Source: a virus (taxonomy: Duplodnaviria; Heunggongvirae; Uroviricota; Caudoviricetes). Taken from it: DNA of 13,372 nt. This document shows, piece by piece, positions 1,153 to 12,124 of the stretch. The DNA is taken from the IMG/VR virus record IMGVR_UViG_3300038451_000684. One strand, given 5' to 3'. Both the position numbers and the translations under genes were made by a program. Below the pieces are notes generated by a model that saw only the letters and a list, made by a program, of their open reading frames with translations, searched no databases and was not told where the DNA came from. How positions within the stretch are numbered: position 1 is the first letter of the stretch; each line of letters begins with the position of its first letter.

Positions 1153-1227
1153 TGCTAGTGGACAGCTAACAGTGGGCAGTAAACAGTTTTTTGCTGTTCA
1201 CTATTCACTGGCCGCTGTCTGCCGTCT
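1153..1227. repeat. Inverted array of degenerate heptamers (5 units, A5 loop, 5 units)
   Basis: Minus strand: AGACGGC AGACAGC GGCCAGT GAATAGT GAACAGC AAAAA ACTGTTT ACTGCCC ACTGTTA GCTGTCC ACTAGCA. Confidence 0.8.
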
Positions 1228-1588
1228 CCAGTTTTTTCAGCGCGTCGGTTTCTTCTTGCGCCAGCTTCCGGCCAACCTGAATGCCCCAGTACAAAAACTC
1301 CATTGGTACTTTGAACGCTTCAAAGTTGGCCAGAATTGCCTTTCCCACGTAGTCATCTTCGTTTTGCCCTGCAGCGTTTGCTTGCATCCAAGTGCCAAGC
1401 TTTGGGGCCCCCAGCGCCGCTACGAGTGTGTTCACCGCCAACGTTGCGGCAATTTTTCTGCTTTGCAGCGCTTCTTCCACTATCTCGCGGAAATCATCGC
1501 CCACCGACAAGCCAAAATTGCGATTGCTGAACTCGTCGCTGACCTTCATTTCCGCTTCCAGCATCGACTTAATCTGCGTTCCAATCAT
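1205..1588 (-). CDS. Hypothetical protein (127 aa)
   Basis: RBS AGGAGG 5 nt before ATG; helical composition; no recognisable motif. Confidence 0.8.
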   Translation of the reverse strand: MIGTQIKSMLEAEMKVSDEFSNRNFGLSVGDDFREIVEEALQSRKIAATLAVNTLVAALGAPKLGTWMQANAAGQNEDDYVGKAILANFEAFKVPMEFLYWGIQVGRKLAQEETDALKKLETADSGQ

Positions 1589-1599
1589 CTCTTCCTCCT

Positions 1600-1637
1600 C
1601 TGTTTTTCACTGTTCTCTGTTCGCTGTTCACTGTTTT
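1600..1637 (-). repeat. Tandem NGAACAG heptamer array
   Basis: AAAACAG TGAACAG CGAACAG AGAACAG TGAAAAACAG. It contains the upstream gene's TGA stop and abuts the AGGAGG RBS of the next gene. Confidence 0.85.
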
Positions 1638-1837
1638 CGAAACTTTTTGGCCATCGGGCAAGTTGCCCAGTGCGCAATGGCCGGAGAATCCGGCTTTGCC
1701 ATCGGCTCCATGGGAATCTGATGGCCTTTTGGCGTGCGCCACCACTCAATGATTTGCAGGCAACCATCGCACACCCCATGATCCAGAAACGTATAGCCCT
1801 GTTCGTGCATCTGCTGCGCGTTTTCAGGAAACGACAT
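1628..1837 (-). CDS. Small phage Zn-binding protein (CxxC...HWATC)
   Basis: CDGC-x-IIEWWRTPKGHQIPM...HWATCP pattern typical of small phage proteins; RBS AAGGGGGAG. Confidence 0.8.
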   Translation of the reverse strand: MSFPENAQQMHEQGYTFLDHGVCDGCLQIIEWWRTPKGHQIPMEPMAKPDSPAIAHWATCPMAKKFRKQ

Positions 1838-1850
1838 GATCTCCCCCTTC

Positions 1851-2693
1851 TCATGCTCTTAATCGGTCCTGCCGCTCCCTGACCTTGCCAATAATCCAAT
1901 TGCGGCCTCTAGGCGTTACCAACGTCTGCGCCACCATCACCATTGAGCCGTTGTTGGGCACCTGGGTGTATCGGATTTTGAAATACCCTTCGTCGATATA
2001 GCGTTGGTAGGGCGTGTTGTGAATCAGCTTGTCTTTCGGGTTACGCTGCAAGATTTTTTCTTGCCGCAGGATTTCAAACAACCGGTTTTGACCAATGATG
2101 AGCAAGTCCAGCGGTTTGGCAACCTCATTCATCGTCAGCAAACCATCCGTGTTGGCGATCATGTCTGCCACAAATGCTTTGGGCTTGAGGATTGCATTTT
2201 GCTGCGTAAGCGCTGCGCTCTCCTGAGCGAGCCGTTGCGCCCGTTCGTACGCGTCAGCCCAAGCGCGGGCGGCAATCGCTGGCTTAGTAAAATCTGGAAT
2301 CTTTGGTTCCGCCAGTTTTGCCTCCAGCTCCTGCCAGCGATCGATAATCCGCGCGCGCAAATCCACCCGATAGCCGGAGATCAGAACCAGCGTTTCTCTC
2401 TTCGGCAACAGGATTTCCGCAATGGAACCGAGGTTATCCCGGCGGATTGTAATTCCTTTGTTTGCAATAGTCGGGAAATCGACTGTTGATTCAAAAGTAG
2501 TTATCCGGACCTTTTGTTCGTAGGGAATCACGGCCAGATCGACGTTTGGACGCGGATAAAGGTCGCAAAGCATCACGCGAATATCAACTAGGACGTGATT
2601 GTGCTCTTTTCTGGTCAGCTCCGCGATTTCGCGACTGCTCATCGTGACTGGCACATTTGTTTCCTCGCCAAATGGGAGCAATGCAGTGCCCAT
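1851..2693 (-). CDS. rha: Rha-family N-terminus fused to a phage antirepressor ANT/KilAC C-terminal domain
   Basis: MSSREIAELTRKEHNHVLVDIR and LISGYRVDLRARIIDRWQELE (Rha); KPKA...IGQNRLFEILR...TPYQRYIDEGYF...TLVTPRG (ANT). RBS AAGGAGGT supports ATG 2693. Confidence 0.9.
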   Translation of the reverse strand: MGTALLPFGEETNVPVTMSSREIAELTRKEHNHVLVDIRVMLCDLYPRPNVDLAVIPYEQKVRITTFESTVDFPTIANKGITIRRDNLGSIAEILLPKRETLVLISGYRVDLRARIIDRWQELEAKLAEPKIPDFTKPAIAARAWADAYERAQRLAQESAALTQQNAILKPKAFVADMIANTDGLLTMNEVAKPLDLLIIGQNRLFEILRQEKILQRNPKDKLIHNTPYQRYIDEGYFKIRYTQVPNNGSMVMVAQTLVTPRGRNWIIGKVRERQDRLRA

Positions 2694-2708
2694 TGTCCGC
2701 ACCTCCTT

Positions 2709-3527
2709 TTACGCTGCTTCCTCGTCGTCTCCGCCTGCGCCGCAGCACATCTTCAGAACCTCGGCCATCTCCTGAAGGTGAGCCGCAAACAGCTTGCGCA
2801 GTTCTTCCAGATCCTCCACACTGTGCGCTTCCGTCACCGCGCGCGTAAGCCGGGGAATCGCTTCGGTCATGAAGCCCACCAGCGTCGGCCGGTCGTGGTA
2901 TTCCGCAATCATCAGTTCCAGCGCATAGCCCGGGTCGTCAATGCCGTGCTCCTGCTGCCAGTCTTCCAGGCCGCGTTCGATTACTTCGCGTTGCGCCTGC
3001 TTGATGCGCCACTTGATCGTGACGTAGACCTCGGCCACCGGCTTGCCTTGGGTGATTGCCGCCACCCGCACCAGTTCGCCTTCGAATTCCTTGGCTGTCA
3101 GTGTGGCCGCCGACTGCAACAGCGCCGCGTCTCCCCGTGTTGAAAGCGGAGCTGCCGCCAGTTGCTCGGCGTTCTCGATGGTCATGGCCAGGAATTGCTC
3201 TTTGCTCAGCATCGGGAACTTCTCCGCCAAGCCCACCATCTTGTACCAGGTCGAACGGCCAATGCCCAAGCGTTTGGGACCACACGTTGCCCGGTAGTGC
3301 TTTTCGTCGACGTAGCCCAGCCTCTGCCATCCGTCGTGGCGTTTGATGAAGTAGCCATCCCAGCCGATCACCATGGAGCGCTTCACCAGCCCGACCCATG
3401 CCTCACAGATGTTCCGGTCGCTTTCTCTCAGTTGTTCGTCCAGACTCGTGCGGGGCATGACTTCACCCTGCATCACCATCCCCGGCACCAAGACTGGCCC
3501 GGCGGAGCAAAGCATCATAGTCGCCAT
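2709..3527 (-). CDS. Hypothetical protein, possible HTH DNA-binding segment
   Basis: RBS GAGGAGG; LGIGRSTWYKMVGLA resembles an HTH recognition helix; ends EEAA. Confidence 0.75.
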   Translation of the reverse strand: MATMMLCSAGPVLVPGMVMQGEVMPRTSLDEQLRESDRNICEAWVGLVKRSMVIGWDGYFIKRHDGWQRLGYVDEKHYRATCGPKRLGIGRSTWYKMVGLAEKFPMLSKEQFLAMTIENAEQLAAAPLSTRGDAALLQSAATLTAKEFEGELVRVAAITQGKPVAEVYVTIKWRIKQAQREVIERGLEDWQQEHGIDDPGYALELMIAEYHDRPTLVGFMTEAIPRLTRAVTEAHSVEDLEELRKLFAAHLQEMAEVLKMCCGAGGDDEEAA

Positions 3528-3562
3528 TTCATTTCCTCCTCAGTAACAGCCAATCCAATCGC

Positions 3563-3979
3563 TCATAAATCTTGATGAAGCACCCATTTTGGGGCCATGC
3601 GCATCCGCGCTCTCATTACCAATGGTTTTAGTTTTTCGACCGTTTCCTCCAGCCTCCGGCAAAAGGCGCTCAACTCTCGTCCGCTCATCCATTGAAAATT
3701 GCGGCATCCCCCCGAGCCGTCTGGGGAATAACCCGCTTCTTGCAAGCAGCCGCAGTATTGCTCCACCGCTTGCGCCAATTCCGCATTTTGAATTTCCCCA
3801 GCGAGCATCCGCAGTTTCGGCATTGTCGAAATATGGAACCGGCGCACGCATTGCCGCGCTTCGCCAGCGCTTAACTCCGTCTGGCTAAAACACCGTTGCA
3901 GAAACAACGCCAAGAAGAGCGGATATCCGTCATCCGCTCTTTCATTGACGTTTGCCTCAAAGCACTCAACCGTTGTCAT
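3563..3979 (-). CDS. Hypothetical protein (about 138 aa)
   Basis: ATG 3979 (or GTG 3982) has AAGGA 7 nt upstream and overlaps the end of the upstream gene; it fills the gap in the operon. Confidence 0.7.
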   Translation of the reverse strand: MTTVECFEANVNERADDGYPLFLALFLQRCFSQTELSAGEARQCVRRFHISTMPKLRMLAGEIQNAELAQAVEQYCGCLQEAGYSPDGSGGCRNFQWMSGRELSAFCRRLEETVEKLKPLVMRARMRMAPKWVLHQDL

Positions 3980-4382
3980 CACCTTTTCCTTCGAGATTCA
4001 GCTTTTTGAGCTTGTCAAAATTGGCTTTCTGAAAAACGTCGGTCAGCGCCGCTTCCACACGCTCGATCTTCTCTGTAACTTTCTTGCGATCTTCGAGCTT
4101 GGCTTTGCTGTAATACGCCACCGCCAGCTTTCCCGCTTCATCGTATTGTTCCTGGTCCGGGCGCAGCTTCCGCAGTTGCCCTTCCAAAGCCTTTAACTCA
4201 TTGACAGCTTTGATCGTCTTGTCCACCCGCCCGCTAATCTCCTCGTGGACAAAATGATTCACAACCTGGCCGGAAACCTCTCCGGTGGTCTCCTCTACTT
4301 GAGCACGCACCTTGACCCAAAACTCAGCTGATGCTTTCAGCTCTTCCCGTCCGTCCGTTGCTTCCACTTTGACTTCCCCCAT
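3966..4382 (-). CDS. Coiled-coil phage hypothetical protein
   Basis: RBS AAAGGA 6 nt before ATG 4382; E/K-rich heptads (LKALEGQLRKLRPD...YSKAKLEDRKKVTEKIERVEAAL). Confidence 0.85.
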   Translation of the reverse strand: MGEVKVEATDGREELKASAEFWVKVRAQVEETTGEVSGQVVNHFVHEEISGRVDKTIKAVNELKALEGQLRKLRPDQEQYDEAGKLAVAYYSKAKLEDRKKVTEKIERVEAALTDVFQKANFDKLKKLNLEGKGDDNG

Positions 4383-4416
4383 CACAGATCCTTTCTGAGT
4401 TGTTGAAAAATGTTTG

Positions 4417-4641
4417 CTACTCCTGTTCGCGCCCGAGACACTGGTCGAGCCAGGAGTGGAAGTGAATGGTCAACGTCTTGGCCTCGTCGGCCGTCAGTCC
4501 GTTGTCCAAAGAAAAGCTTGATCCGTCCTTGCGCACTCCCAGCACCAGCAGCTTGGCAATCTGCGCATCCTCTTCCACGATGCGCGCCGCAATGGTCCGC
4601 ACTCCGTTTTTCTGTTCTCCATTTTCTGTTTCTTCAGGCAT
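4417..4641 (-). CDS. Hypothetical protein (74 aa)
   Basis: RBS GAAAGG/GGCGGA; the N-terminus is encoded by degenerate heptamers GAAACAG AAAATGG AGAACAG. Confidence 0.75.
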   Translation of the reverse strand: MPEETENGEQKNGVRTIAARIVEEDAQIAKLLVLGVRKDGSSFSLDNGLTADEAKTLTIHFHSWLDQCLGREQE

Positions 4642-4654
4642 AAGCAGTTCCGCC

Positions 4655-4689
4655 TTTCCCTAACCCCTACCCCCTACTCCCCAACCCCT
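4655..4689 (-). repeat. G-rich heptamer array, potential G-quadruplex
   Basis: AGGGGTT GGGGAGT AGGGGGT AGGGGTT AGGGAAA: five G-runs of 3 or more G with 2-4 nt loops, in exact 7-nt register. Confidence 0.85.
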
Positions 4690-4708
4690 GCGAACGCTTT
4701 GCGTTCGC
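4690..4708. other. Perfect 8-bp hairpin immediately after a stop codon, no U-tract
   Basis: GCGAACGC-AAA-GCGTTCGC on the minus strand, between TGA 4711-4709 and the G-rich array. Confidence 0.7.
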
Positions 4709-4945
4709 TCACTCCACTCTCCACACCCGCATTCCCTCGTCGTCGTACTTGCAATAGAAATGCTTCTCTCTTTGCAATCCATAAAGACCAACATCGATAC
4801 TCGATATGGGCGGAAAAATGCTGTTCGGTGCGTTGGGAATGTAAATGCTATCCAGTATCTCCATCTGCATTAGCTCCGGCACGACCTTCTCCGCCCGAGG
4901 TTTGACATCCGGTAGCGGCACATTCTTTTCGATTGCAATCGTCAC
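4709..4945 (-). CDS. Small phage protein, putative DNA-binding (IEKNVPLP...DS...RVWR family)
   Basis: GTG 4945 overlaps the upstream TGA (GTGA) and has GAGG upstream; the motif pattern is typical of small phage proteins. Confidence 0.75.
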   Translation of the reverse strand: MTIAIEKNVPLPDVKPRAEKVVPELMQMEILDSIYIPNAPNSIFPPISSIDVGLYGLQREKHFYCKYDDEGMRVWRVE

Positions 4946-5172
4946 TGTGCTTCCTCGCATTCATCTGGATATAAATCAATTTCGTGATCATTTTCAGCGC
5001 GACCGCAATAAAGAAAACCTGCTGGCAGCTTGTGGTCCATTCGAACCATCGCGCCTCCCTGTCTGCTTCTTTCCAGAGGGCGCACGACAACGCCATATTG
5101 CTCGTCCAGTTTTCCGCCAAAAACCCCGGTTCCACGAACAACGATTCGTTGTCCAACACGCAGTTCTTTCAT
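4942..5172 (-). CDS. Hypothetical protein, SH3-like beta barrel
   Basis: ATGA overlap with the methyltransferase stop; LRVGQRIVVRG...GVVV pattern. Confidence 0.75.
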   Translation of the reverse strand: MKELRVGQRIVVRGTGVFGGKLDEQYGVVVRPLERSRQGGAMVRMDHKLPAGFLYCGRAENDHEIDLYPDECEEAQ

Positions 5173-6749
5173 CTCGCCTCCGCTTGATTGAACAGCGGCG
5201 CATCCGCCTCAATCCGCCGCCGCGCAATCTCCACATACTCCGGGTTCACTTCAATGCCGATGAAATTGAAGCCTTCTTGCAGCGCCGCAATGCCCGTCGA
5301 TCCCGAGCCCATAAAGCAGTCCAGCACCGTGCCTCCCGGCGGCGTCATCAGCCGGCACAGATAGCGCATTAACGCAATGGGCTTCACGGTCGGATGATTG
5401 TTGCCGCGCATTTTGACGGTGTTCATTCCGCTGTCGCCTTTGTGGTCCAGGTTGCCGCGCTTTACCTCCGCTTGCGCCTGATTGCCATAAGCCAAGGGCT
5501 GTGCAGCAAGGCCAGCGCAGCCGATCTCGCGTTCTTCTTTGCTGGCCTTGGCGCAATAAAAGAACCGCGCTGCGGAACCTGCATCCAAGCGGCGGGCGCC
5601 CGGCAGCGCGGCAAAGTTAGTTGCCCCTTCTGTCGCGTAACGGCGGTTGGCGCTTGGCTCCCCATCGCGCGGGGTTGAGGTTGCGCGCGTTTTGAATTTC
5701 CCGTAGATGCCTTGCGTACTAAAACTTGGTTCCTCGCCGGTTACCACACCCACCGCACCCGGCGCGTCAGGAAACGCCGCCAGCACTTCTTCGCTGCCGT
5801 CATGGATTACGTTGGCCGGCCACCGGCCCATTTGATTTGGAATGACAACGCGGCGGTTTTCCTCGTGCGCGATAATGTTTCCGCCATTGCCGCCGTTGAT
5901 GTGCGTCCGCAACTGTGGATTCAAAGCAAGATTGCCCTCATCCACCGTCACGTACTCCACGCGGCACGCATCGATGTTCAGCGCTCCGGTTCCGTATTGC
6001 AGAACATTGGCCGCCACGGTTCCGGCCAGCGGCTTACGCGCAACAACTATTGGTTCGTGCGCCGGTTTCAGCGCCGTGCCCCAGCCTGCCCATTGCATGG
6101 CGGCATCTGTAGCCGGTGCAGTAATTGGTTGTGCCGGATAGTCATAACTGACTTTGCGCGTGTCGCTGTATTGCTGCTGAGCTTTGCCGCGGTGATAAGG
6201 TGGCGGTCCAATGACCTTCCGTTCGGCTCCCGCCATCTTGTCAATCGCCTTGCTCACGTCCAGCGATTTTGGGAAGCCGCTGCCATAAATCCACATAATC
6301 TGATCGCGAATCTCGAAGCCCGCGTCCTCGACGGCGCAAGCCAGCCGATGGTAAGTGCGGCTGCCGCCAAAGGCCAGCAGATACCCGCCCGGCTTCAACA
6401 CGCGCAGCGCTTCTTGCGCCCAGCGCTCATGCCACTCTTGCAGCGCTTGCATCACATGCTCGTCGGCGCCGTAGCTCGCGCCGTTGCCGTTGCGCACCTT
6501 GCTGCGGCCATACGGGCTGTCCGGCGTCTGCATCGTACCGTCGAATCCTTGACGGTGATCGGTCTTTTTCGTTTTTGGGCTAACCCCTAACCCCTGATTC
6601 CTAACCCCTGCTTTCCATGGCGCATCCCAGTCTTTGCCCATGAACTCCAGCCCATACGGAGGGTCGGTCACGATGGCGTCCACCGACTCATCCGCCAGCG
6701 TCTTCAGTTGCTCCATCACGTCGCCCTCCAGAATTCGATACACGCTCAC
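5169..6749 (-). CDS. Beta-class N6-adenine/N4-cytosine DNA methyltransferase (N6_N4_Mtase family)
   Basis: N-terminal catalytic DPPY, HPTVKP, C-terminal SAM-binding FMGSGSTG, separated by a long variable region. Start is GTG 6749 or 6743, downstream of the stop at 6758. No cognate restriction enzyme is seen. Confidence 0.95.
   Translation of the reverse strand: MSVYRILEGDVMEQLKTLADESVDAIVTDPPYGLEFMGKDWDAPWKAGVRNQGLGVSPKTKKTDHRQGFDGTMQTPDSPYGRSKVRNGNGASYGADEHVMQALQEWHERWAQEALRVLKPGGYLLAFGGSRTYHRLACAVEDAGFEIRDQIMWIYGSGFPKSLDVSKAIDKMAGAERKVIGPPPYHRGKAQQQYSDTRKVSYDYPAQPITAPATDAAMQWAGWGTALKPAHEPIVVARKPLAGTVAANVLQYGTGALNIDACRVEYVTVDEGNLALNPQLRTHINGGNGGNIIAHEENRRVVIPNQMGRWPANVIHDGSEEVLAAFPDAPGAVGVVTGEEPSFSTQGIYGKFKTRATSTPRDGEPSANRRYATEGATNFAALPGARRLDAGSAARFFYCAKASKEEREIGCAGLAAQPLAYGNQAQAEVKRGNLDHKGDSGMNTVKMRGNNHPTVKPIALMRYLCRLMTPPGGTVLDCFMGSGSTGIAALQEGFNFIGIEVNPEYVEIARRRIEADAPLFNQAEAR
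6580..6609 (-). repeat. AGGGGTT heptamer array in-frame inside the methyltransferase gene
   Basis: AGGGGTT AGGAATC AGGGGTT AGGGGTT AG, encoding AGVRNQGLGVS. Confidence 0.85.
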
Positions 6750-6757
6750 TCCCGCAG

Positions 6758-6952
6758 TTACTTCTTGTCGTTTGCGCTTACAACCACTTGAAGCACAGAC
6801 AGCATTAGCCTTACCGGCACATAAATCCAAAACAAAAACCAGATCAAGCGATCAGGATGGATTGCGCTCAGTATCGTGTACACCAGGAAGTACCAGATTG
6901 GCGCCGTCACGCAAACAGCAAGCAATCCCGTGAAAATTTTTAAACCCTTCAT
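6758..6952 (-). CDS. Small two-TM membrane protein (64 aa)
   Basis: Two hydrophobic stretches (IFTGLLAVCVTAPIWYFLVYTIL; LIWFLFWIYVPVRLMLSVLQVVV); RBS GAAAGG/GGAGAG. Confidence 0.8.
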   Translation of the reverse strand: MKGLKIFTGLLAVCVTAPIWYFLVYTILSAIHPDRLIWFLFWIYVPVRLMLSVLQVVVSANDKK

Positions 6953-6964
6953 CGTCTCTCCGCC

Positions 6965-6985
6965 TTTCCCTAACCCCTAACCCCT
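6965..6985 (-). repeat. AGGGGTT heptamer array, intergenic
   Basis: AGGGGTT AGGGGTT AGGGAAA between the primase stop (6991) and the next RBS. Confidence 0.85.
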
Positions 6986-6990
6986 GCTTC

Positions 6991-8676
6991 TCAGCTCTCC
7001 CCCGTAGCCCGCTGCCGCCCGTCATAATTCACGATCTCCCGCACCTTGCCGCGCCGTCTGCCCGTAGCTTCTTCCGGCGCATCGGTCAGCTCAATGCGCA
7101 GTGCTTCGTCATCGCCCACAATCATGAAATGCACCGGGTCGGCCGGGCAGGCGTATTTCAGTTCGAACTCCACCTTGCGCACCCACTGCTTGCGCGCCAC
7201 CGTCTCGTCGACCACCGTGAGGCCCACGCCCCATTCCGTCCAGCCGTGAATCGCTCCCGCGCCGCGCGCATCGCGAAAGACGTTGCTTGATTGCGCCTTC
7301 GACAAGTGATGCAGAAGCAGCACGCCGCAATGCGCTTCTTCTTGAATGCGCGTCAGCGCTTCCAGCGCGCCGGTCATCACCGTGTTGTCGTTTTCGTCGC
7401 CAGAGTGCAAGGCGCTGAAGACATCGAAGATGGCCAGATCGAACTGCTCCATTTGCAGCTCCTTGATTAACGCGTCGACCTGTTCGATGTTGTCCACATG
7501 CAGCATCGGAGATTGATCCATGGTGTTCAGCCAAATCTGTCCCCAGTTGTATTCGCCGCGCGCCGCCGTCCCCTTGGAGAAAAGCTGTAACCGGCGAGCG
7601 GTTTCCGCCGGCGAATCTTCCCGGCTAATCACCGCCACGCGGCGGCGGCGCGGCACCACATGCCCCAGCCAGCTCGAACCCGATGCCAGCGCCAATGCCA
7701 GGTCCAATGCCAGCGGCGACTTGCCCACCTTCGGATCGGCAACCATGAGGCCGCGCGTTCTTACCGGAATCAGATCATCCACCAGCCAATCGATCTCCGC
7801 CGGAGCCCGGTCCAGAAAGTCCCGCATCTCTTCCAGCAGCACATGCTCTGAAGCGACCGGCGCCCACAAGGCAGAGGCTTTCACCAGCGCTAGCAGCTCT
7901 TTGACCGTGTGCCCCGCCGCCAGCCAATCGCTCACATCGCCTTTTTCCGGCAACCCTTCCAGCTCGGTCGCCTTTACCTTGGCGGCATACGGTTTCACGC
8001 TGGCGCAGATCGTCTGCTGGTGCGCTTTGCCCACGGCATCGTTGTCCGCCAGCACCACCACCAGTCGGCCAGTGAAGTAGGGCGCGTACTCCGGCTTCCA
8101 TTTCCCGGCGCCGTCAAAGGTCGTCGTTACCGCCGTATTCTTCAGCCCCGCCGCCGTGAACGCATCGATAAGGTTGTCGGCATCCTTTTCGCCTTCAACC
8201 ACAAAAACCATCTTGGCGCTGATCACTTCGGGCAGATGGTAAAGAACCTTCTTGACGCCGTTCAGGTTGTAGAACCAGCCATCCTTGCCGTCCGGCTGCC
8301 GCTGGCTGAACTGCTTCGGCTCGTAGCGCAATTTCTGATAGAGCAGCTTGCCGGCCACGTCCGTGTATTCGTAGACCTTCACCAGCTTGCGATCATGCTT
8401 CGGCGGTTCCATGCCGATGATGCGATAGATTTCGCTCCAAGCCGTCTCCGTGTCGGTGGCCATCATGGCGCGTTCAAAGTCGAGAATTCCGCCGCTCCGG
8501 CCGCAACTGTGGCAATTCCAAACGGCCTTCGCCAAGTTCAAGCTCATCGACGGATTCTTGTCCTCATGGAAAGGGCAGCGCACATTCAGCGCATCCCGCT
8601 TCGTCAGCCGCTCCGTCGGTAGCCGGTAGGCGAAGTAGGCATAGGTCTGATCGAATGTGGGCTGGAATTCATTCAT
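6991..8676 (-). CDS. Primase-helicase fusion (CHC2 Zn finger, TOPRIM, RecA-like AAA_25-type helicase), 561 aa
   Basis: CPFHED...WNCHSC; VVEGEKDAD...LADND; Walker A ADPKVGKS, Walker B AIFD, LLLHH...ARGAGAI. ATG 8676 overlaps the upstream TGA and has GGAG upstream, so the 8829 start is unlikely. Confidence 0.92.
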   Translation of the reverse strand: MNEFQPTFDQTYAYFAYRLPTERLTKRDALNVRCPFHEDKNPSMSLNLAKAVWNCHSCGRSGGILDFERAMMATDTETAWSEIYRIIGMEPPKHDRKLVKVYEYTDVAGKLLYQKLRYEPKQFSQRQPDGKDGWFYNLNGVKKVLYHLPEVISAKMVFVVEGEKDADNLIDAFTAAGLKNTAVTTTFDGAGKWKPEYAPYFTGRLVVVLADNDAVGKAHQQTICASVKPYAAKVKATELEGLPEKGDVSDWLAAGHTVKELLALVKASALWAPVASEHVLLEEMRDFLDRAPAEIDWLVDDLIPVRTRGLMVADPKVGKSPLALDLALALASGSSWLGHVVPRRRRVAVISREDSPAETARRLQLFSKGTAARGEYNWGQIWLNTMDQSPMLHVDNIEQVDALIKELQMEQFDLAIFDVFSALHSGDENDNTVMTGALEALTRIQEEAHCGVLLLHHLSKAQSSNVFRDARGAGAIHGWTEWGVGLTVVDETVARKQWVRKVEFELKYACPADPVHFMIVGDDEALRIELTDAPEEATGRRRGKVREIVNYDGRQRATGES

Positions 8677-9242
8677 GCTGTTTCTCCATCGCCGAAAATC
8701 GTTTTGCCGTTCCAGGTGTGATGCGGCACATCGGTCCGGTGCAATGCCCGCAACTCCTCCGCACTCAAGTCGTAAATTTGCTGATACTCGGAAAGCAAAC
8801 TTAATAATCTCGTTGCGTTTGATTGCCAAGAGCCATGCAAAGCGTAGACATTGCCATCTTGATATGCCTGACTATGCGCAATGCAAGCCGCTTCAAACCC
8901 CAGCCCATTTGCTAAAGCCTTGTCATAGGCATCGTTACAAGCCTGCCATTTTTCTTCGTATTTCATTTGCGCAATGCGCGTTGGTTCAAAAGCCTTCATA
9001 CACTTGTCACATACCTCGACTAGGGCCTTCGGCAACGGTGACAGAACTGGCCGCATATTGTTCAGCCGGCAAACCATTTCTTTGCTGGCTTTATGGCACA
9101 GGATGTAGTCGATGCGTTCGCTGATCGGTTTCATCAACGGCTCGGCTTCCTCGCCATGATGCACGCACCATCCCCACGTCGCCTCCGGGTGCGCCGCCCA
9201 TGCCGCCCGGCAATCTGCCAACGCTTTCTGAACATCATCCAT
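8673..9242 (-). CDS. Phage hypothetical protein with WCVHH N-terminal and WNGKTIF C-terminal motifs around a helical, low-GC core
   Basis: Overlaps both neighbours; a single AGGGGTT unit (9254-9248) acts as its SD-like sequence. Confidence 0.8.
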   Translation of the reverse strand: MDDVQKALADCRAAWAAHPEATWGWCVHHGEEAEPLMKPISERIDYILCHKASKEMVCRLNNMRPVLSPLPKALVEVCDKCMKAFEPTRIAQMKYEEKWQACNDAYDKALANGLGFEAACIAHSQAYQDGNVYALHGSWQSNATRLLSLLSEYQQIYDLSAEELRALHRTDVPHHTWNGKTIFGDGETA

Positions 9243-9531
9243 GAATCAACCCCTTGAGCCACCGCATGAACAGGCTGTCGGGCTTCGGCGTTCCTGGTTC
9301 CGGGTAGCGCCACAACCCCAGCATTTTCATGTCTTCCTCGGTCAGCTTCTGCATGGCCACCAGTCGCCGCTCAAAATGTTCCTTGGCATTGCCGCGGCAG
9401 CCCGGCGTCGGGCAGGACCAAATGCCAGTTAGCTCTCCCGGCGCATTGTTTTCGTCAATCCACGTTTCCACGCTGACGACCTCCATCGGCGCGCCGCAGA
9501 AGCAGGTCCATGCCTCGTCGTCAAAGCTCAT
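9235..9531 (-). CDS. Zn-ribbon-like hypothetical protein
   Basis: CFCG...CPTPGC; RBS AGGAGGG. Confidence 0.75.
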   Translation of the reverse strand: MSFDDEAWTCFCGAPMEVVSVETWIDENNAPGELTGIWSCPTPGCRGNAKEHFERRLVAMQKLTEEDMKMLGLWRYPEPGTPKPDSLFMRWLKGLIHG

Positions 9532-9736
9532 GCCGCCCTCCTGCTTCCCCTAACCCCTGTTTCCTAACCCCTGTTTTTCTGGACACGCCCAGCAACAATC
9601 TCCGCGCAGACTCATCCGCGCAGGCATCCAGCTGGTTTAGCAGCATCGCGCCATACGCCAGCTTTCCTGCTACTCGCCTGTTCAACTTGTAGCGTTCGGC
9701 ATAGAGTTTCGTGCGCGGGTCCTTGAGCCACGTCAT
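9521..9736 (-). CDS. Small phage hypothetical protein (71 aa)
   Basis: ATG 9736 overlaps TGA of the upstream gene (ATGA), with GGAG upstream; contains QLDACADESARRLLLGVS. Confidence 0.75.
   Translation of the reverse strand: MTWLKDPRTKLYAERYKLNRRVAGKLAYGAMLLNQLDACADESARRLLLGVSRKTGVRKQGLGEAGGRHEL
9545..9572 (-). repeat. AGGGGTT heptamer array in the 3' end of the 9521..9736 gene
   Basis: AGGGGTT AGGAAAC AGGGGTT AGGGGAA, directly upstream of the next RBS. Confidence 0.85.
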
Positions 9737-9948
9737 GCCGCTCTCCGCATCCGGCTGGCGCGCTGGACTGGCTGGACTGGTTTGACGGCTTGCTCCTCGG
9801 CTTCCCAGCGCAACACATCCAGCGCGCAAATCCGGTTCAAGGCGTAAGTCCGATCGAGCACTCCTTCGTCGGCGGCCTTGGCCAGCGCCCGCCGGAAGAG
9901 CTTCAGCTCCAGCGGATTCATCGCGACAGTCACAAAAACTTCTGGCAT
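9733..9948 (-). CDS. Hypothetical protein (71 aa)
   Basis: RBS AAGGA before ATG 9948; ends RRAA. Confidence 0.75.
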   Translation of the reverse strand: MPEVFVTVAMNPLELKLFRRALAKAADEGVLDRTYALNRICALDVLRWEAEEQAVKPVQPVQRASRMRRAA

Positions 9949-9972
9949 AAAATCTTCCTTTCTTGAAGTCGT

Positions 9973-9995
9973 CTAACCCCTGGCCCCTAACCCCT
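9973..9995 (-). repeat. AGGGGTT heptamer array forming the last codons and stop of the replication gene
   Basis: AGGGGTT AGGGGCC AGGGGTT AG; the TAG stop (9975-9973) falls on a unit junction. Confidence 0.85.
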
Positions 9996-10905
9996 GTTTT
10001 CTACTGACTTCCTGCGTTTTTTGTAGCCACTTTTCAAACTGCTCGGTGGAGCGGAAGAGATGGTCTTCCCATTCGCAATAGGTTCTGCCTTCGGTCTTCG
10101 GATCGCGTCCCATGTGCCAGTCCGACAAGGCCACTTCGTCGACCACGGCCTTCATCAGCACGATGGCATCTTCCAGGTTGCCGTGCGCAATGCGCAATGC
10201 TTCTTCCAAGCGCGCCATGCCTTTTCTCCTGCGTAGCTGGCTGAAGGTGTAGGTTTTCGGATTGCGGCTCATGGTGGTCAGGTAGTAGGCGAAAACCTCG
10301 CGCAGCGCCTTGGCCATCTGCGGCTTCTCCCCGGTGGTTACTGCCGGTTCTCCAAAGAGCCCGACAGGCGTTTCGGGAGTCTCGCCGTCTTGTTCCGCAA
10401 CTTCGGAATCCGTGCCGCAGTCGTCTGGCGATGGTTCGCCGGACGAGGAAGGAACGTTTTTTGTTCCTTCCGGCAATTCCATTCCTTTCCCTGTTCCCTG
10501 TTCCTTTCCTTTCCCTTCCCACCCGGAATCTTCCGTGAATCCTCCGTGAGCCTTCCGTGAGCCTTCCCATATAACGTCTAAGTCCTTTATTTTGCTTGGA
10601 GTTGGATGATTCACTCGCTGGTGGATCAAGAATTTCACCACGTGACCCCAGTGTTTTCCGTCGCTCGTTTTGCCGAGCTGGATATAGCCGATTTTTTCGA
10701 GTTGCTGGAGCATGTCGGGAACACTCACTGAGGATTCACGGAGGGGAAATATCGCTGCTTTGACCAGTCCCGGATTGGCATTGAAGTAGCCGGCGTCGTC
10801 GGAATAGCAAAGCAACCCAGCGGCGAAAAGATGTGTTTCTGCCGGGAGTGCCGACAGCTCTTCGTCTGTCGTGAACTCCGGTTTAATCGTGCGTATGCGG
10901 CCCAT
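9973..10905 (-). CDS. Phage replication initiator / replisome organiser (lambda O-like architecture)
   Basis: N-terminal MGRIRTIKPEF...LLCYSDDAGYF winged-helix-type family, an iteron-encoded linker, and a C-terminal helical domain (WHMGRDP...HLFRSTEQFEKW). Confidence 0.85.
   Translation of the reverse strand: MGRIRTIKPEFTTDEELSALPAETHLFAAGLLCYSDDAGYFNANPGLVKAAIFPLRESSVSVPDMLQQLEKIGYIQLGKTSDGKHWGHVVKFLIHQRVNHPTPSKIKDLDVIWEGSRKAHGGFTEDSGWEGKGKEQGTGKGMELPEGTKNVPSSSGEPSPDDCGTDSEVAEQDGETPETPVGLFGEPAVTTGEKPQMAKALREVFAYYLTTMSRNPKTYTFSQLRRRKGMARLEEALRIAHGNLEDAIVLMKAVVDEVALSDWHMGRDPKTEGRTYCEWEDHLFRSTEQFEKWLQKTQEVSRKQGLGARG
10481..10567. promoter_or_regulatory. Putative replication origin: 11-bp iterons plus a purine-biased tract
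   Basis: TTCCGTGAATC / CTCCGTGAGCC / TTCCGTGAGCC (10531-10563), an inverted copy GGATTCACGGA at 10732-10742, and an adjacent GGAA/GGAACAG tract at 10481-10520. Confidence 0.7.
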
Positions 10906-10925
10906 TTCATGCCCTGCTCGTTTCC

Positions 10926-11141
10926 TTACTTACTGAAAAGCGTTGTGGCGGAAAAATCCTCTGTCTTTCGTCTTGCCGCCTCAACCATGTAGCAAACCTT
11001 GCATCGTGTGCATTGAAACCACCACTCGAAGTAATACGTACTTGTTGGGCTAGGACACCATTCCGGCTGATGTGTCCGCCGCGCAACCGGTGCCCCGCAC
11101 TTTCTACAGCTCTGATCTTCGGAAAGAATTTTGATCTTCAT
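10926..11141 (-). CDS. Zn-ribbon hypothetical protein
   Basis: CRKC...CTRC; the ATG overlaps TGA 11140-11138. Confidence 0.75.
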   Translation of the reverse strand: MKIKILSEDQSCRKCGAPVARRTHQPEWCPSPTSTYYFEWWFQCTRCKVCYMVEAARRKTEDFSATTLFSK

Positions 11142-11637
11142 GTCTGTTGTTCTTCACTTTTCCGTTTCGAGGTAGCTTTCAATGAACGCTTGCGCTGCCG
11201 GGACACAGATGGCATCGCCCGCGAGGCGTAAGAGACCCACGCGACCGGAATACCCTGAAGCCAAAGGGAATGTTCCGGGTTCAACTGGCCGGAACTTGCC
11301 ATCCCTGCACCCGATCCAGTCAGCACCTGCCCAGTAGCCGTTAAGCGGACCGGGCCTGCCGGGCACTCGGGAATCGTGCGCGCCATTTGGTCCAATCCCA
11401 TCTCGTTGATCCGGTCCAGACGGCGCGGTCGTCTGGCCATCCTGCTTGCCTGAGCGCAAGGCTCCAGAATCCTCCACCTGCGAAGAAGTGGCATTGGGCA
11501 TATCCCACAAGGTCGGCTGGTTCGACATCGGCAATGCTCCGCTCATCCACATCTCCCGGCGCGATGGCGCCATCCAGAATTGCCTGTCGGATAATCTCCG
11601 CTTTGAGAGGATCTATCTCGTTGTAATAAGCCGACAC
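11138..11637 (-). pseudogene. C5-cytosine DNA methyltransferase remnant with an internal deletion and frameshift
   Basis: The N-terminus SAYYNEIDP...HFFAGGG...VWTGS breaks at about 11410, where the catalytic (S)CPCQ should follow. The C-terminus GPLNGYW...DWIGCRDGKFRPVEPGTFPL...AGDAICVP is in another frame. A motif IX-like LNPEHSLWLQGIP is in the third frame. Confidence 0.85.
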
Positions 11638-11667
11638 ATCCGCTCCGTTCACAGGGGCAGAGATTTG

Positions 11668-11683
11668 CTAACCCCTAACCCCT
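11668..11683 (-). repeat. AGGGGTT heptamer pair, intergenic
   Basis: AGGGGTT AGGGGTT AG, 4 nt after the alpA stop. Confidence 0.8.
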
Positions 11684-11687
11684 GCTT

Positions 11688-11912
11688 TTACGCCGCTCTC
11701 TCTGCGATCTTGGCGGCCAGCCAGCCTTCAATATCGCTGGTCAGCCAACCGATGGCGCGTTGGCTCAGATTCAGCGGTTGGGGAAACTCACCGGACTTTT
11801 GCAGTGCGTAGATGGTGCTGGCGCTCAGCCCGACCATGGCCAGCACCTGTTTTTTGCGGAGGATAAGGGGAAGCCTTTCGGACACAACTGTCTTCTTGGT
11901 TTTGTTCGCCAC
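11688..11912 (-). CDS. alpA: AlpA-family transcriptional regulator / excisionase
   Basis: ILRKKQVLAMVGLSASTIYALQKSGEFPQPLNLSQRAIGWLTSDIEGWL is a canonical AlpA HTH pattern; GTG start. Confidence 0.93.
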   Translation of the reverse strand: MANKTKKTVVSERLPLILRKKQVLAMVGLSASTIYALQKSGEFPQPLNLSQRAIGWLTSDIEGWLAAKIAERAA

Positions 11913-11964
11913 GCTGCACCTGCTTGATGCATTTCGATAGTGCTTGCAGAAATGCGATGGAACG

Positions 11965-11992
11965 ATTATCCATGCTTTTCAAGGGGTATCAA
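11965..11992 (-). promoter_or_regulatory. Candidate sigma70-type promoter for the alpA-replication operon
   Basis: TTGATA (11992-11987), 16-nt spacer, GATAAT (11970-11965), in an AT-rich gap downstream of the integrase terminator. Confidence 0.5.
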
Positions 11993-12056
11993 GCCTCTAA
12001 ATAAGACTCGTCTAATTAGGTCGAGCTAAGTCTGAAATGAATTGATAAGTAGACAC

Positions 12057-12097
12057 AAAAAAGCCGGCACGCAAGGGATTTTTTCTCGCGCCCGGCT
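12057..12097 (-). terminator. Rho-independent terminator after the integrase, possibly bidirectional
   Basis: AGCCGG-GCGCGAG / CTTGCGT-G-CCGGCT stem followed by T6 on the minus strand; T-rich runs also follow on the plus strand. Confidence 0.8.
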
Positions 12098-12124
12098 CTG
12101 TTTTTTCTGTTTTTGCTGTTTGCT
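12098..12124 (-). repeat. Three A-rich units ending in AAACAG (9-nt period)
   Basis: AGCAAACAG CAAAAACAG AAAAAACAG, between the integrase stop and the terminator stem. Confidence 0.65.

What the first reader, a model, noticed from the sequence alone, without database searches (positions are those of the whole stretch)
1153..12124. Element-wide, strand-polarised family of 7-nt-period N4-YAG repeats at gene junctions
Seen in sequence: at least 14 exact AGGGGTT copies on the coding strand (4668, 4689, 6588, 6595, 6609, 6978, 6985, 9254, 9558, 9572, 9981, 9995, 11676, 11683), and none found by eye on the other strand; about 1 is expected by chance at uniform base composition. A second type (NGAACAG) occurs at 1153-1227, 1600-1637, 4604-4632 and 10484-10504, with a 9-nt variant at 12098-12124. 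Re-phased, both types are one pattern ending in YAG (GGGTTAG, GAATCAG, GAAACAG, GGGCCAG, TGAACAG, TGAATAG), and both are interleaved in the same arrays. The period and the AG are kept while other positions drift. Established: heptameric STRRs are known from filamentous cyanobacteria, TTAGGG-like repeats from telomeres, and TRAP reads (G/U)AG triplets at fixed spacing. Inference: these are either binding sites for a protein reading periodic YAG on the early transcript or DNA, or footprints of a repeat-adding or slippage mechanism acting at gene boundaries.
Basis: partly seen in the sequence, partly recalled or inferred. Interest (0 to 1): 0.8.

Follow-up and report, generated by a model that had tools for sequence, protein, structure and literature searches.

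The report
Heptamer repeats between phage genes
The 7-letter repeats after the stop codons of this peat-soil phage's early genes are real and lie on one strand, but they are the fast-slipping "heptamer repeats" that also fill gaps between genes in some soil bacteria, not a phage-specific protein-binding code; their function is still unknown.

Summary
All 14 AGGGGTT copies lie on the coding strand (1.2 expected). The general pattern (YAG-N4)x3 occurs 18 times (0.28 expected).

The arrays are heptameric simple-sequence repeats of the STRR / Xanthomonas-Nostoc kind. This scan already reported them in the adjacent window of the same phage.

- **They are not phage-specific.** The same unit occurs in unrelated viral contigs and in genomes of many phyla. 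One Acidobacteriota genome has about one period-7 array per 4.6 kb, and facing AGGGGTT arrays there enclose a small four-helix-bundle gene (PF05635).
- **They change by slippage.** Near-identical phages from other peat metagenomes differ in length only inside tandem repeats, by 14-nt steps in the heptamer arrays.
- **They can be copied to new sites.** One array with its flanks is a 48-nt in-frame insertion in the methylase gene.
- **They are dispensable.** Related phages carry other units at the same junction, or none.
- **Polarity follows the DNA strand.** In a complete 132.7-kb relative, single arrays stay on the G-rich strand even where genes are on the other strand.

So slippage and copying are supported, and a transcript-reading YAG protein is not. 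No HutP gene was found. The invariant YAG core remains unexplained.

The parts
11668..11687 (-). Array A1. AlpA stop TAA, then AAGC, then AGGGGTT x2, then AG. It pairs with a short C-rich stretch downstream (CTCTGCCCCTG).
   Evidence: RNA hairpin -23 kcal/mol, z -3.7.
9973..10003 (-). Array A2: AAAACAG, AGGGGTT, AGGGGCC, AGGGGTT, AG. The last TAG is the stop codon of ORF 9973-10905, and the array encodes that ORF's last 8 residues.
9549..9578 (-). Array A3: AAC, AGGGGTT, AGGAAAC, AGGGGTT, AGGGG, followed by the SD sequence AGGAGG and ATG 9531. The small gene starting at ATG 9736 reads through it. It is 14 nt shorter in the sister strain, which changes that protein's tail (72 versus 65 aa).
9248..9254 (-). 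Single AGGGGTT copy 6 nt upstream of ATG 9242. It is probably just a Shine-Dalgarno-like AAGGGG, not an array.
6968..6990 (-). Array A4. Primase-helicase stop TGA, then GAAGC, then AGGGGTT x2, then AGGGAAAGGCGGAG (RBS). Three alleles exist in peat populations: 2 units, and two 4-unit forms.
6567..6614 (-). 48-nt in-frame insertion in the N6/N4 DNA methylase gene: AAAGC, four heptamers (array A5, 6580-6609), AGC, CCAAAAACGAAA. It encodes KAGVRNQGLGVSPKTK and is absent from the orthologues in L061 and L063.
4658..4708 (-). Stop TGA, then the hairpin GCGAACGC-AAA-GCGTTCGC, then array A6 (AGGGGTT GGGGAGT AGGGGGT AGGGGTT AGGG), then the RBS. Similarity to the sister strain ends 2 nt after the array.
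1606..1640 (-). Array A8: AGTGAAC, AGCGAAC, AGAGAAC, AGTGAAA. It contains the stop TGA of gene 1628-1837 and runs into the SD sequence GAGGAGG. It is predicted to be unstructured.
1156..1217 (-). The only facing pair in the window. The CAG arm (1217-1194) holds the stop TGA of gene 1205-1588. It is followed by a 7-nt loop and then the CTG arm (1186-1156). The next RBS and start lie 19 nt further on.
   Evidence: Hairpin -40.6 kcal/mol, z -4.0.
12050..12124 (-). Integrase stop TAG, then the A-rich tract AGCAAAC AGCAAAAAC AGAAAAAAC AG, then a GC hairpin and a T run (terminator-like). It resembles the AAGAGC tract plus T run of the cassettes in relative G012.
10487..10506 (-). AAGGAAC AGGGAAC AGGGAA inside ORF 9973-10905, just before the part of that ORF that relatives conserve (from about residue 145).

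Best explanation
The arrays are heptameric simple-sequence repeats of the kind that litters intergenic DNA of certain bacteria (cyanobacterial STRR, Xanthomonas GGGAATC). Here they are carried by a temperate peat-soil phage.

I read them as gene-less 'solo arms' and short hairpins of heptamer-armed intergenic elements, in a unit 'dialect' (AGGGGTT, NNNNCAG) that also exists in Acidobacteriota chromosomes.

- **Shown:** they grow and shrink by replication slippage in two-unit (14-nt) steps that can take the flank with them.
- **Shown for one case, otherwise inferred:** they are occasionally copied with their flanks to new places.
- **Shown:** they are tolerated only where they do no harm. That means from the stop codon to just before the next ribosome-binding site, across the last codons of a gene, or in frame in a loop of the methylase.
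- **Inferred:** their one-strandedness reflects the DNA strand (a strand-retentive copying process plus the strong G-over-C asymmetry of these genomes) and not the direction of transcription.
- **Inferred:** they are not needed for expression of the module, and any effect on mRNA or recombination is secondary. Examples would be an unstructured purine-rich spacer before the RBS, hairpins where two arms face each other, or homology for module exchange.
For: **Not element-specific**
- AGGGGTTAGGGGTTAGGG occurs in 56 viral stretches unrelated to the window.
- AGGGGTTAGGGGTTAG occurs in more than 120 genome stretches from many phyla.
- Two Acidobacteriota genomes have 96 and 50 hits of AGGGGTTAGGGG, against 0-2 for the control pattern.
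- In 400 kb of G009, TRF finds 87 period-7 arrays, more than for any other period. Units include GGGGTTA and CAGGGAT, the arrays abut gene ends, and both orientations occur.

**Slippage**
- Over the 6.5-kb colinear block with L057 (98% identity), the only indels are 14 nt at 9576, 14 nt at 6981 and 9 nt in another tandem repeat.
- Four other peat assemblies show the same three sites and nothing else. The X5 allele at 6975 is an exact duplication of AAGCAGGGGTTAGG.

**Copying**
- A 48-nt insertion with the prefix AAAGC and suffix AGC, both shared with the AlpA-junction array, lies in the methylase. The orthologues read TGG AAG ACC without it.

**Dispensable and lineage-specific**
- At the primase stop, WIN has AGGGGTT x2, L057 has 4 mixed units, L059 has AGAGAGC x2.5, L062 has CAGGGAT/CAGGGGT x3, L064 has CAGTTGT x4, and L061, L063 and L065 have none.
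- Three 68-79-kb relatives have no (YAG-N4)x4 at all.

**Polarity follows DNA, not transcription**
- In G012 (132.7 kb, 99% complete) there are 68 period-7 arrays.
- All 20 composite cassettes and nearly all single arrays have CAG on the + strand. This includes 5 single arrays and 3 cassettes in blocks of minus-strand genes.
- The + strand has GC skew +0.10 to +0.18 there too.

**Position**
- The position rule, 0-50 bp after the stop on the coding strand and including overlaps with the stop, is the one published for Xanthomonas and Nostoc heptamers (PMC4692102).
Against: - **The invariant core.** The A and G of YAG are almost invariant while the other four positions drift: 1 of 59 variant letters across 16 arrays of three phages, against 17 expected. 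G012 has 198 hits of TCAG-N3 x3 with many different N3. Pure neutral slippage does not predict this. Arrays of G009 also have invariant cores, but different ones.
- **Density.** The phages hold about 1 array per 1.7-2 kb, which is 2-3 times the density of the richest bacterial sample.
- **Polarity is not uniform.** It is mixed in relative G013, so a single rule tying arrays to the GC-skew strand does not hold everywhere.
- **The host is unknown.** 'Host dialect' is therefore inferred from the phylum, not shown.
- **No RNA or protein data exist,** so a function cannot be excluded.
Confidence: 0.6

Rival explanations
1. The arrays are recognition sites (RNA or single- or double-stranded DNA) for a trans-acting host protein, most plausibly a four-helix-bundle protein of the 23S-rRNA-IVS-protein / Avd-like family (PF05635). 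Each paralogue's own gene is enclosed by facing arrays of one heptamer dialect. The phage carries gene-less arms in its host's dialect, and the protein makes, maintains or uses them.
For: - In G009 the PF05635 gene at C2:298629-298946 lies between a TAGGGGT array and a CCCTAAC array, which is the window's unit.
- Three further PF05635 genes in G009 and one in G010 have heptamer arrays on one or both sides, and at least four distinct units occur among them (GGGATTC, GGGATTT, GGGAATC).
- All 7 Acidobacteriota genomes with at least 3 hits of AGGGGTTAGGGGTT have PF05635 genes, against 223 of 401 overall.
- An invariant core with drifting positions is what a binding site would show.
- G012 carries 20 gene-less cassettes with heptamer arms and a conserved core.
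Against: - PF05635 is so common in the phylum (56% of genomes) that co-occurrence is weak evidence.
- Two array-rich MAGs (G006, G011) and all the phage records have no PF05635 or TIGR02436 match. The G006 hits turned out to be a different, REP-like element.
- No binding has been tested.
- Most arrays in the window are single arms.
- Relatives do without arrays.
Confidence: 0.2
2. The arrays act on the polycistronic early mRNA as intercistronic elements. They would be unstructured purine-rich or SD-like spacers (or RNA G-quadruplexes) that tune re-initiation at the next cistron. Where two arms face each other, they would form hairpins that stabilise, terminate or are cut (RNase III) between cistrons.
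For: - They sit between a stop codon and the next SD sequence in one operon, downstream of a promoter-like site at 11992-11965.
- Single arrays are predicted to be no more structured, or less structured, than shuffles (z 0 to +1.8). The facing pair and A1 form strong hairpins.
- AGGGG can pair with the anti-SD sequence (inference).
- Array 4658-4689 has five G tracts.
- Published work shows G4 formation for related heptamers and proposes translational roles for TAACTGA repeats (PMC4692102, PMC4679880).
Against: - In G012, arrays in minus-strand gene blocks present the C-rich strand to the mRNA.
- The GAACAGN and CAGTTGT units are neither SD-like nor G4-forming.
- The number of G tracts per array ranges from 2 to 5, with no preference for four.
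- A 14-nt change in spacing is tolerated between sister strains.
- Orthologous junctions in relatives lack arrays.
Confidence: 0.12
3. The arrays are polar DNA signals tied to replication or DNA handling of the phage. Examples would be clustered priming sites for the CHC2-type primase-helicase encoded next to them, or Chi-like protective sites. That would explain their single orientation across the genome.
For: - In G012 the orientation is uniform with respect to the DNA strand, irrespective of gene direction, and it coincides with a uniform GC skew.
- The spacing of about 2 kb is of the order of Okazaki fragments (inference).
- The complement of YAG is CTR, the trinucleotide class used by DnaG-type primases (from memory, not tested).
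Against: - Relatives with 67-81% identical primase-helicases have other units or none.
- Polarity is mixed in G013.
- By the usual skew rule the G-rich strand is the lagging-strand template. That puts CTR on the wrong strand (inference).
- Bacterial genomes carry the same arrays in both orientations, with no replichore pattern in 400 kb of G009.
Confidence: 0.05

Closest known systems
G-rich heptameric repeats GGGAATC (Xanthomonas) and GGGGA(C/T)T (Nostoc PCC 7120; the complement of STRR1 CCCCAGT), Rehm et al. 2015, PMC4692102
   Same: - 7-nt units with a G tract, in arrays of 2 to a few units.
- Strongly non-coding and preferentially between co-oriented ORFs.
- The G-rich strand lies within 0-50 bp of, or overlapping, the stop codon.
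- Extensive length and sequence variation between close relatives.
- Inverted pairs can form stem-loops.
- Function unknown.
   Different: - Here the arrays are on a phage, at 2-3 times higher density.
- The unit is AGGGGTT, mixed with A-rich units (AGNGAAC).
- There is no preference for four units.
- In the phage group the invariant part is YAG rather than the G tract.
- One DNA strand is strongly preferred in two of the three array-bearing lineages.
Cyanobacterial STRR heptamers (STRR1 CCCCAGT, STRR2 TTGGTCA, STRR3 CAACAGT); unit sequences quoted from my own knowledge
   Same: - Tandem intergenic heptamers in several unit families per genome.
- STRR1 and STRR3 contain CAGT, as do the window's ACAGTGA units and the CAGT-N3 units of relative G013.
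   Different: A different phylum and a phage carrier. No sequence descent is shown.
Intergenic TAACTGA direct repeats of Beggiatoaceae, Cyanobacteria and Bacteroidetes (MacGregor 2015, PMC4679880)
   Same: - Heptamer direct repeats, 2-6 copies.
- Patchy distribution across phyla.
- They lie next to start codons, and a post-transcriptional role has been proposed.
   Different: - The unit is unrelated.
- Those repeats sit a few nucleotides upstream of starts, whereas these abut stops.
- No strand or GC-skew relation was reported there.
ORF-bearing intervening sequences of 23S rRNA, and intergenic cassettes carrying a PF05635 four-helix-bundle gene in a long hairpin
   Same: In Acidobacteriota genome G009 a PF05635 gene is enclosed by facing AGGGGTT arrays, the window's unit.
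   Different: The window and its phage relatives hold no such gene. Most arrays here are single arms.
HutP (UAG-N4 x3, twice) and TRAP ((G/U)AG x11) RNA-binding antiterminator and attenuator proteins; site rules quoted from my own knowledge
   Same: NAG triplets at fixed spacing on one strand. HutP's spacing is also 7.
   Different: - No HutP gene is present.
- The copy number is variable (2-5).
- The arrays are not in a terminator/antiterminator leader.
- Orientation does not follow transcription in G012.
REP/BIME elements and their RAYT (Y1) transposases
   Same: Short intergenic repeats after stop codons that form hairpins and occur in many copies.
   Different: These are tandem heptamers, not a single imperfect palindrome. 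Y1 transposase is absent from G012, G006 and G011.

Membership tests
Intergenic heptameric simple-sequence repeats (STRR / LSSR; Rehm 2015 type) | Tandem arrays with a 7-nt unit, far above chance | tested here: met
   - 14 AGGGGTT against 1.19 expected.
- (YAG-N4)x3 occurs 18 times against 0.28 expected.
- 8 of 16 TRF rows have period 7.
Intergenic heptameric simple-sequence repeats (STRR / LSSR; Rehm 2015 type) | Non-coding bias, between co-oriented ORFs, G-rich strand within 50 bp of or overlapping the stop codon | tested here: met
   Eight arrays start 0-19 nt after a stop or contain one. The exceptions are the in-frame methylase insertion and 10487-10506.
Intergenic heptameric simple-sequence repeats (STRR / LSSR; Rehm 2015 type) | Length and sequence variation between close relatives at the same locus | tested here: met
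   14-nt indels at two arrays, and three alleles at 6975. Relatives carry different units at the primase junction.
Intergenic heptameric simple-sequence repeats (STRR / LSSR; Rehm 2015 type) | Genome-wide occurrence in the organism that carries them | tested here: inconclusive
   Only 13.4 kb of this phage is readable here. The sister contig G001 and the complete relative G012 have arrays throughout. The host is unknown. Some Acidobacteriota genomes are rich in them, but only 17 of 401 hold this unit.
Intergenic heptameric simple-sequence repeats (STRR / LSSR; Rehm 2015 type) | Preference for four units / G-quadruplex capacity | tested here: not met
   Arrays have 2-5 G tracts. The AGNGAAC units have none. 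This is a property reported for Xanthomonas, not a requirement of the class.
HutP-type (NAG-N4)3 RNA-binding sites | A HutP-family protein encoded by the phage or the host | tested here: not met
   PF09021 was not found in G001, G006, G009, G010 or G011. The control search detects it in Bacillus subtilis.
HutP-type (NAG-N4)3 RNA-binding sites | Sites on the transcript, within a terminator/antiterminator leader, with a fixed number of sites | tested here: not met
   Copy number is variable. Arrays in minus-strand gene blocks of G012 are antisense to the mRNA.
Heptamer-armed cassettes with a PF05635 (23S rRNA IVS protein / Avd-like) gene | Facing arrays of one heptamer unit enclosing the gene | tested here: not met
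   No PF05635 or TIGR02436 gene was found in G001, G012 or G013. The arrangement does exist with the same unit in bacterial genome G009. The window could hold at most gene-less arms.
Heptamer-armed cassettes with a PF05635 (23S rRNA IVS protein / Avd-like) gene | Arrays occur only in genomes that carry such a gene | tested here: inconclusive
   7 of 7 Acidobacteriota genomes with at least 3 hits have the gene, against a base rate of 56%. G006 and G011 have many hits and no such gene, though G006 holds a different element.
REP/BIME with RAYT | A Y1 (RAYT) transposase in the genome | tested here: not met
   PF01797 is absent from G012, G006 and G011, and present in G009 and G010.
Telomere repeats | Long arrays at the ends of a linear replicon | tested here: not met
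   The arrays are 2-4 units long and internal, at gene junctions.

The most novel reading that the evidence does not exclude
The arrays are gene-less arms of a widespread, so far undescribed class of intergenic elements. Autonomous copies carry a four-helix-bundle (23S-rRNA-IVS-protein / Avd-like) gene between facing heptamer arrays, and each paralogue has its own 7-letter dialect. On this reading a phage acquires arms in the dialect of its host because that host protein recognises or generates them. The invariant YAG would be the protein's contact. Phage arrays would then report host range and give an experimental handle on the 35-year-old question of what bacterial heptamer repeats are for.
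Probability: 0.25. Interest if true: 0.75.

Novelty: new member of a known kind. Interest (0 to 1): 0.42.

Why it matters
Heptameric intergenic repeats have been known since the cyanobacterial STRRs, and no function or origin has been accepted for them. This phage family offers a compact natural system of 68 arrays in 132.7 kb.

- The repeats can be seen changing in 14-nt steps between wild populations.
- They can be seen invading a coding sequence.
- They swap unit 'dialects' between related phages.
- They keep one DNA strend regardless of transcription, which points away from RNA-level models.
- In bacteria of the likely host phylum, the same unit flanks a small four-helix-bundle gene. That gives a concrete protein to test.

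For annotation, the arrays also explain variable C-terminal tails and spurious read-through ORFs at gene ends.

Tried and rejected
- **Whole genome of the window.** It is not held, so element-wide and host-wide counts were made on stand-ins.
- **HutP-like reader.** No PF09021 was found.
- **RAYT / Y1-transposase mobilisation.** PF01797 is absent from three of five array-rich records.
- **Rfam.** No family matched in the window or in 20 kb of G012.
- **The G012 cassette core** (GCTCAGGATGACAG) is not present in the window.
- **Consensus promoter/terminator scan.** The arrays are not picked up. Only the AlpA promoter-like site is notable.
- **Host identification through a prophage copy of the primase-helicase.** Only 30-46% identical homologues turned up, in 16 of 401 Acidobacteriota genomes. 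That tally includes unpublished genome G168, and nothing in this report rests on it.
- **Replichore polarity in bacteria.** None is visible in 400 kb of G009.
- **Crude flank test on 176 unrelated loci.** Arrays are about 90% intergenic and their orientation relative to genes is mixed. The gene calls there are rough.
- **Arrays as mosaic breakpoints.** All four rearrangements between the window and L057 have an array within 30 nt of at least one breakpoint. Because 8-9 of 23 junctions carry arrays, this is not significant (about p = 0.16 by my estimate).
- **RNA evidence.** No RNA holder is listed among public runs. The first call of that tool failed.
- **Telomere-like reading.** Rejected, because the arrays are short and internal.
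- **AGGGGTTAGGGG hits in G006.** They proved to be a different element: a hairpin CCCCTTCCC-N4-GGGAAGGGG followed by two heptamers.

Full report
**Setting.** The window is the integrase end of an uncultivated peat-soil phage (earlier notes of this scan). All its genes lie on the - strand:
- a tyrosine integrase (12125-13351);
- an AlpA-type regulator (11688-11912) behind a promoter-like site (11992-11965);
- a CHC2-zinc-finger/AAA_25 primase-helicase (6991-8676);
- an N6/N4 DNA methylase (5169-6830);
- a Rha/KilAC antirepressor (1851-2702);
- many small ORFs.

No whole genome is held for the window. I therefore used stand-ins:
- a 98%-identical sister contig (L057, G001);
- more distant relatives found through the primase-helicase (L059-L065);
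- a 99%-complete 132.7-kb relative (G012);
- bacterial genomes.

**Observation.** About 1.2 are expected.
YAG-N4-YAG-N4-YAG occurs 18 times against 0.28 expected, 15 of them on the coding strand.
- The three matches on the other strand (1156-1186) are the facing arm of a 30-bp hairpin with 1194-1217.
- The two unit types are one family. In the phase AG-N5 the units are AGGGGTT, AGGGGCC, AGGAATC, AGGAAAC, AGGGAAC, AGTGAAC, AGCGAAC and AGAGAAC, and they interleave within arrays.
- Most arrays start 0-19 nt after a stop codon or contain it, and they end about 20 nt before the next start.
- Three sites are not junctions: the array inside the methylase ORF, the one inside ORF 9973-10905, and the weak 4604-4632 stretch.
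- The 14 copies are only 7 loci, and the coding strand is G-rich (skew about +0.14). The window alone therefore shows polarity less strongly than 14:0 suggests.

**They are not specific to this element.**
- The 18-mer AGGGGTTAGGGGTTAGGG is found in 56 viral stretches that share nothing else with the window.
- The 16-mer is found in more than 120 genome stretches of Cyanobacteria, Planctomycetota, Chloroflexota, Myxococcota, Acidobacteriota and others.
- Some genomes are full of the unit. Two Acidobacteriota MAGs hold 96 and 50 hits of AGGGGTTAGGGG, and two 'delta-proteobacterial' MAGs hold 189 and 93, on both strands. The reversed control gives 0-2.
- In 400 kb of Acidobacteriota genome G009, period 7 is by far the commonest tandem period (87 TRF rows). 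Several unit families occur (GGGATTT, TTGCATT, GGGGTTA, GGGATCC, CAGGGAT and more). The arrays abut gene ends and often form facing pairs.
- Within the phylum the AGGGGTT unit is patchy: 17 of 401 genomes hold it, and only three hold many copies.
- Position and behaviour match what Rehm et al. described for Xanthomonas and Nostoc heptamers: between aligned ORFs, within 50 bp of or overlapping the stop on the coding strand, and variable between close relatives (PMC4692102).
- This scan had already filed the neighbouring window's TTAGGGG islands as host-type heptamer repeats.

**How they change.**
- Over the 6.5-kb block where the window and L057 are 98% identical, the only indels are 14 nt in array 9549-9576, 14 nt in array 6968-6985, and one 9-nt unit of another tandem repeat.
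- Contigs from four other peat metagenomes confirm this. Two carry the window's arrays letter for letter. Two carry the sister alleles. At 6975 there are two different 14-nt insertions, and one of them is a perfect duplication of AAGCAGGGGTTAGG.
- Slippage that takes the flank along explains the 'second type' units (AGGAAGC, AGGAAAC) interleaved with AGGGGTT.
- The 14-nt change at 9549 shifts the frame of the last codons of a small gene (ATG 9736), giving 72- and 65-residue products. Arrays therefore encroach on gene ends.
- The methylase array is a 48-nt in-frame insertion: AAAGC, four units, AGC and 12 more nt. It lies between TGG and AAG ACC, which are contiguous in the orthologues. Its prefix and suffix recur at the AlpA junction. 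It therefore looks copied from another array rather than grown from a local seed.

**Relatives.**
- At the orthologous junction after the primase-helicase, four lineages carry four different units and three carry none.
- Three 68-79-kb relatives have no (YAG-N4)x4 at all. The module works without arrays.
- Across 16 arrays of the window, L062 and L064, only 1 of 59 non-consensus letters falls on the A or G of YAG, against 17 expected.
- G012 has 198 hits of TCAG-N3-TCAG-N3-TCAG with many different N3, against 0 for the control.
- Arrays of bacterial genome G009 also have invariant cores, but different ones, and there the A before GGG is a variable position.

**Polarity.**
- G012 has 68 period-7 arrays.
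- Twenty are pairs that form one conserved composite cassette: stop, 2-18 nt, CAG arm, TTAGAAGC, an AAGAGC hexamer tract, a conserved core of about 60 nt, a T run, CTG arm, 6-23 nt, start.
- The cassette folds into a giant hairpin (-116 kcal/mol, z -7).
- All 20 cassettes have the same DNA orientation. Nearly all single arrays have CAG on the + strand. This includes five single arrays and three cassettes inside blocks of minus-strand genes at 52-62 kb and 113-121 kb.
- The + strand has GC skew +0.10 to +0.18 throughout, and +0.34 at third codon positions of minus-strand genes.
- Orientation therefore follows the DNA strand, not transcription. That argues against a reader of the early transcript.
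- The rule is not universal. In G013 many single arrays are CTG-type and lie 15-24 nt before starts. In G009 single arrays are mixed and show no replichore pattern.

**A lead from earlier notes, tested here.** Several earlier reports of this scan link heptamer-armed hairpins to a small four-helix-bundle gene (PF05635, 23S rRNA IVS protein / Avd-like).
- I found that gene in G009 exactly between a TAGGGGT array and a CCCTAAC array, which is the window's unit.
- Three more copies in G009 and one in G010 have arrays of other units on one or both sides.
- All seven Acidobacteriota genomes with at least 3 hits of the AGGGGTT 14-mer have the gene. But so do 223 of 401 genomes overall. These tallies include three unpublished genomes, and no claim here rests on them.
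- The phages have no such gene.
- Two array-rich MAGs lack it too. One of them, G006, holds a different REP-like element around a DUF559 gene.
- The link is real in two genomes, but it does not yet explain the phage arrays.

**Verdict.**
- The finding is a true, well-described instance of a known but unexplained kind of repeat, carried here by a phage.
- Slippage and copying are shown.
- A transcript-reading YAG protein is not supported.
- The invariant YAG, the high density and the DNA-strand polarity remain unexplained.
- The best lead for future work is a trans-acting host protein.

Noticed in passing
window 10526-10567 (- strand): An 11-nt direct repeat x3.5 (GGAAGGCTCAC-like on the coding strand) lies just upstream of the heptamers at 10487-10506, inside ORF 9973-10905. 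Relatives conserve only the C-terminal half of that ORF (from about residue 145). The repeat looks like iterons at a gene or domain boundary, possibly an origin.
   Followed up: partly
window 9762-9780: A 9-nt tandem repeat (CCAGTCCAG on the coding strand) is present twice here and once in the sister strain and in two other peat assemblies. It is the only other indel in 6.5 kb.
   Followed up: partly
window 9521-9736 (- strand): The small gene starting at ATG 9736 overlaps the preceding stop (ATGA). Its C-terminal tail is encoded by the heptamer array and differs between strains (72 versus 65 aa).
   Followed up: yes
G012 = L206-L212, e.g. L208:10195-10440: Twenty copies of a 200-300-nt composite intergenic cassette: heptamer arms, an AAGAGC hexamer tract, a conserved core with 1-3 copies of GCTCAGGATGACAG, and a T run. 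All are in one DNA orientation, and there is no Rfam match. It may relate to the 'two-state leader RNA' reported earlier for this phage group.
   Followed up: partly
G012 whole record (L206-L212): A strong, uniform G-over-C skew of one DNA strand (+0.10 to +0.18) persists through blocks of genes on the other strand. This suggests unidirectional replication or another genome-wide strand asymmetry.
   Followed up: partly
L236 (G006:C3:393800-395700): A REP-like element occurs at four places in this 1.9-kb stretch. It is a hairpin CCCCTTCCC-N4-GGGAAGGGG followed by TTAGGGGTTAGG. Two facing copies enclose a DUF559 (Vsr-like endonuclease fold) gene. This genome has 189 hits of AGGGGTTAGGGG.
   Followed up: partly
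401 Acidobacteriota genomes: PF05635 four-helix-bundle genes are found in 223 of 401 genomes. Many genomes reach 11 matches, which looks like the tool's scoring cap, so true copy numbers may be higher.
   Followed up: no
window 11965-11992 and 12050-12092 (- strand): A promoter-like TTGATA-16-GATAAT site lies upstream of alpA. A GC hairpin plus T run follows the integrase gene. Together they probably mark the start of the early operon.
   Followed up: no
window versus L057: 4656/3544, 2707/1837, 1651/1154, 11639/11219: Four gene-cassette replacements or deletions separate the two 98%-identical strains. Each has a heptamer array within 30 nt of at least one breakpoint. This is suggestive of recombination at arrays, but it is not significant given how many junctions carry arrays.
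   Followed up: partly
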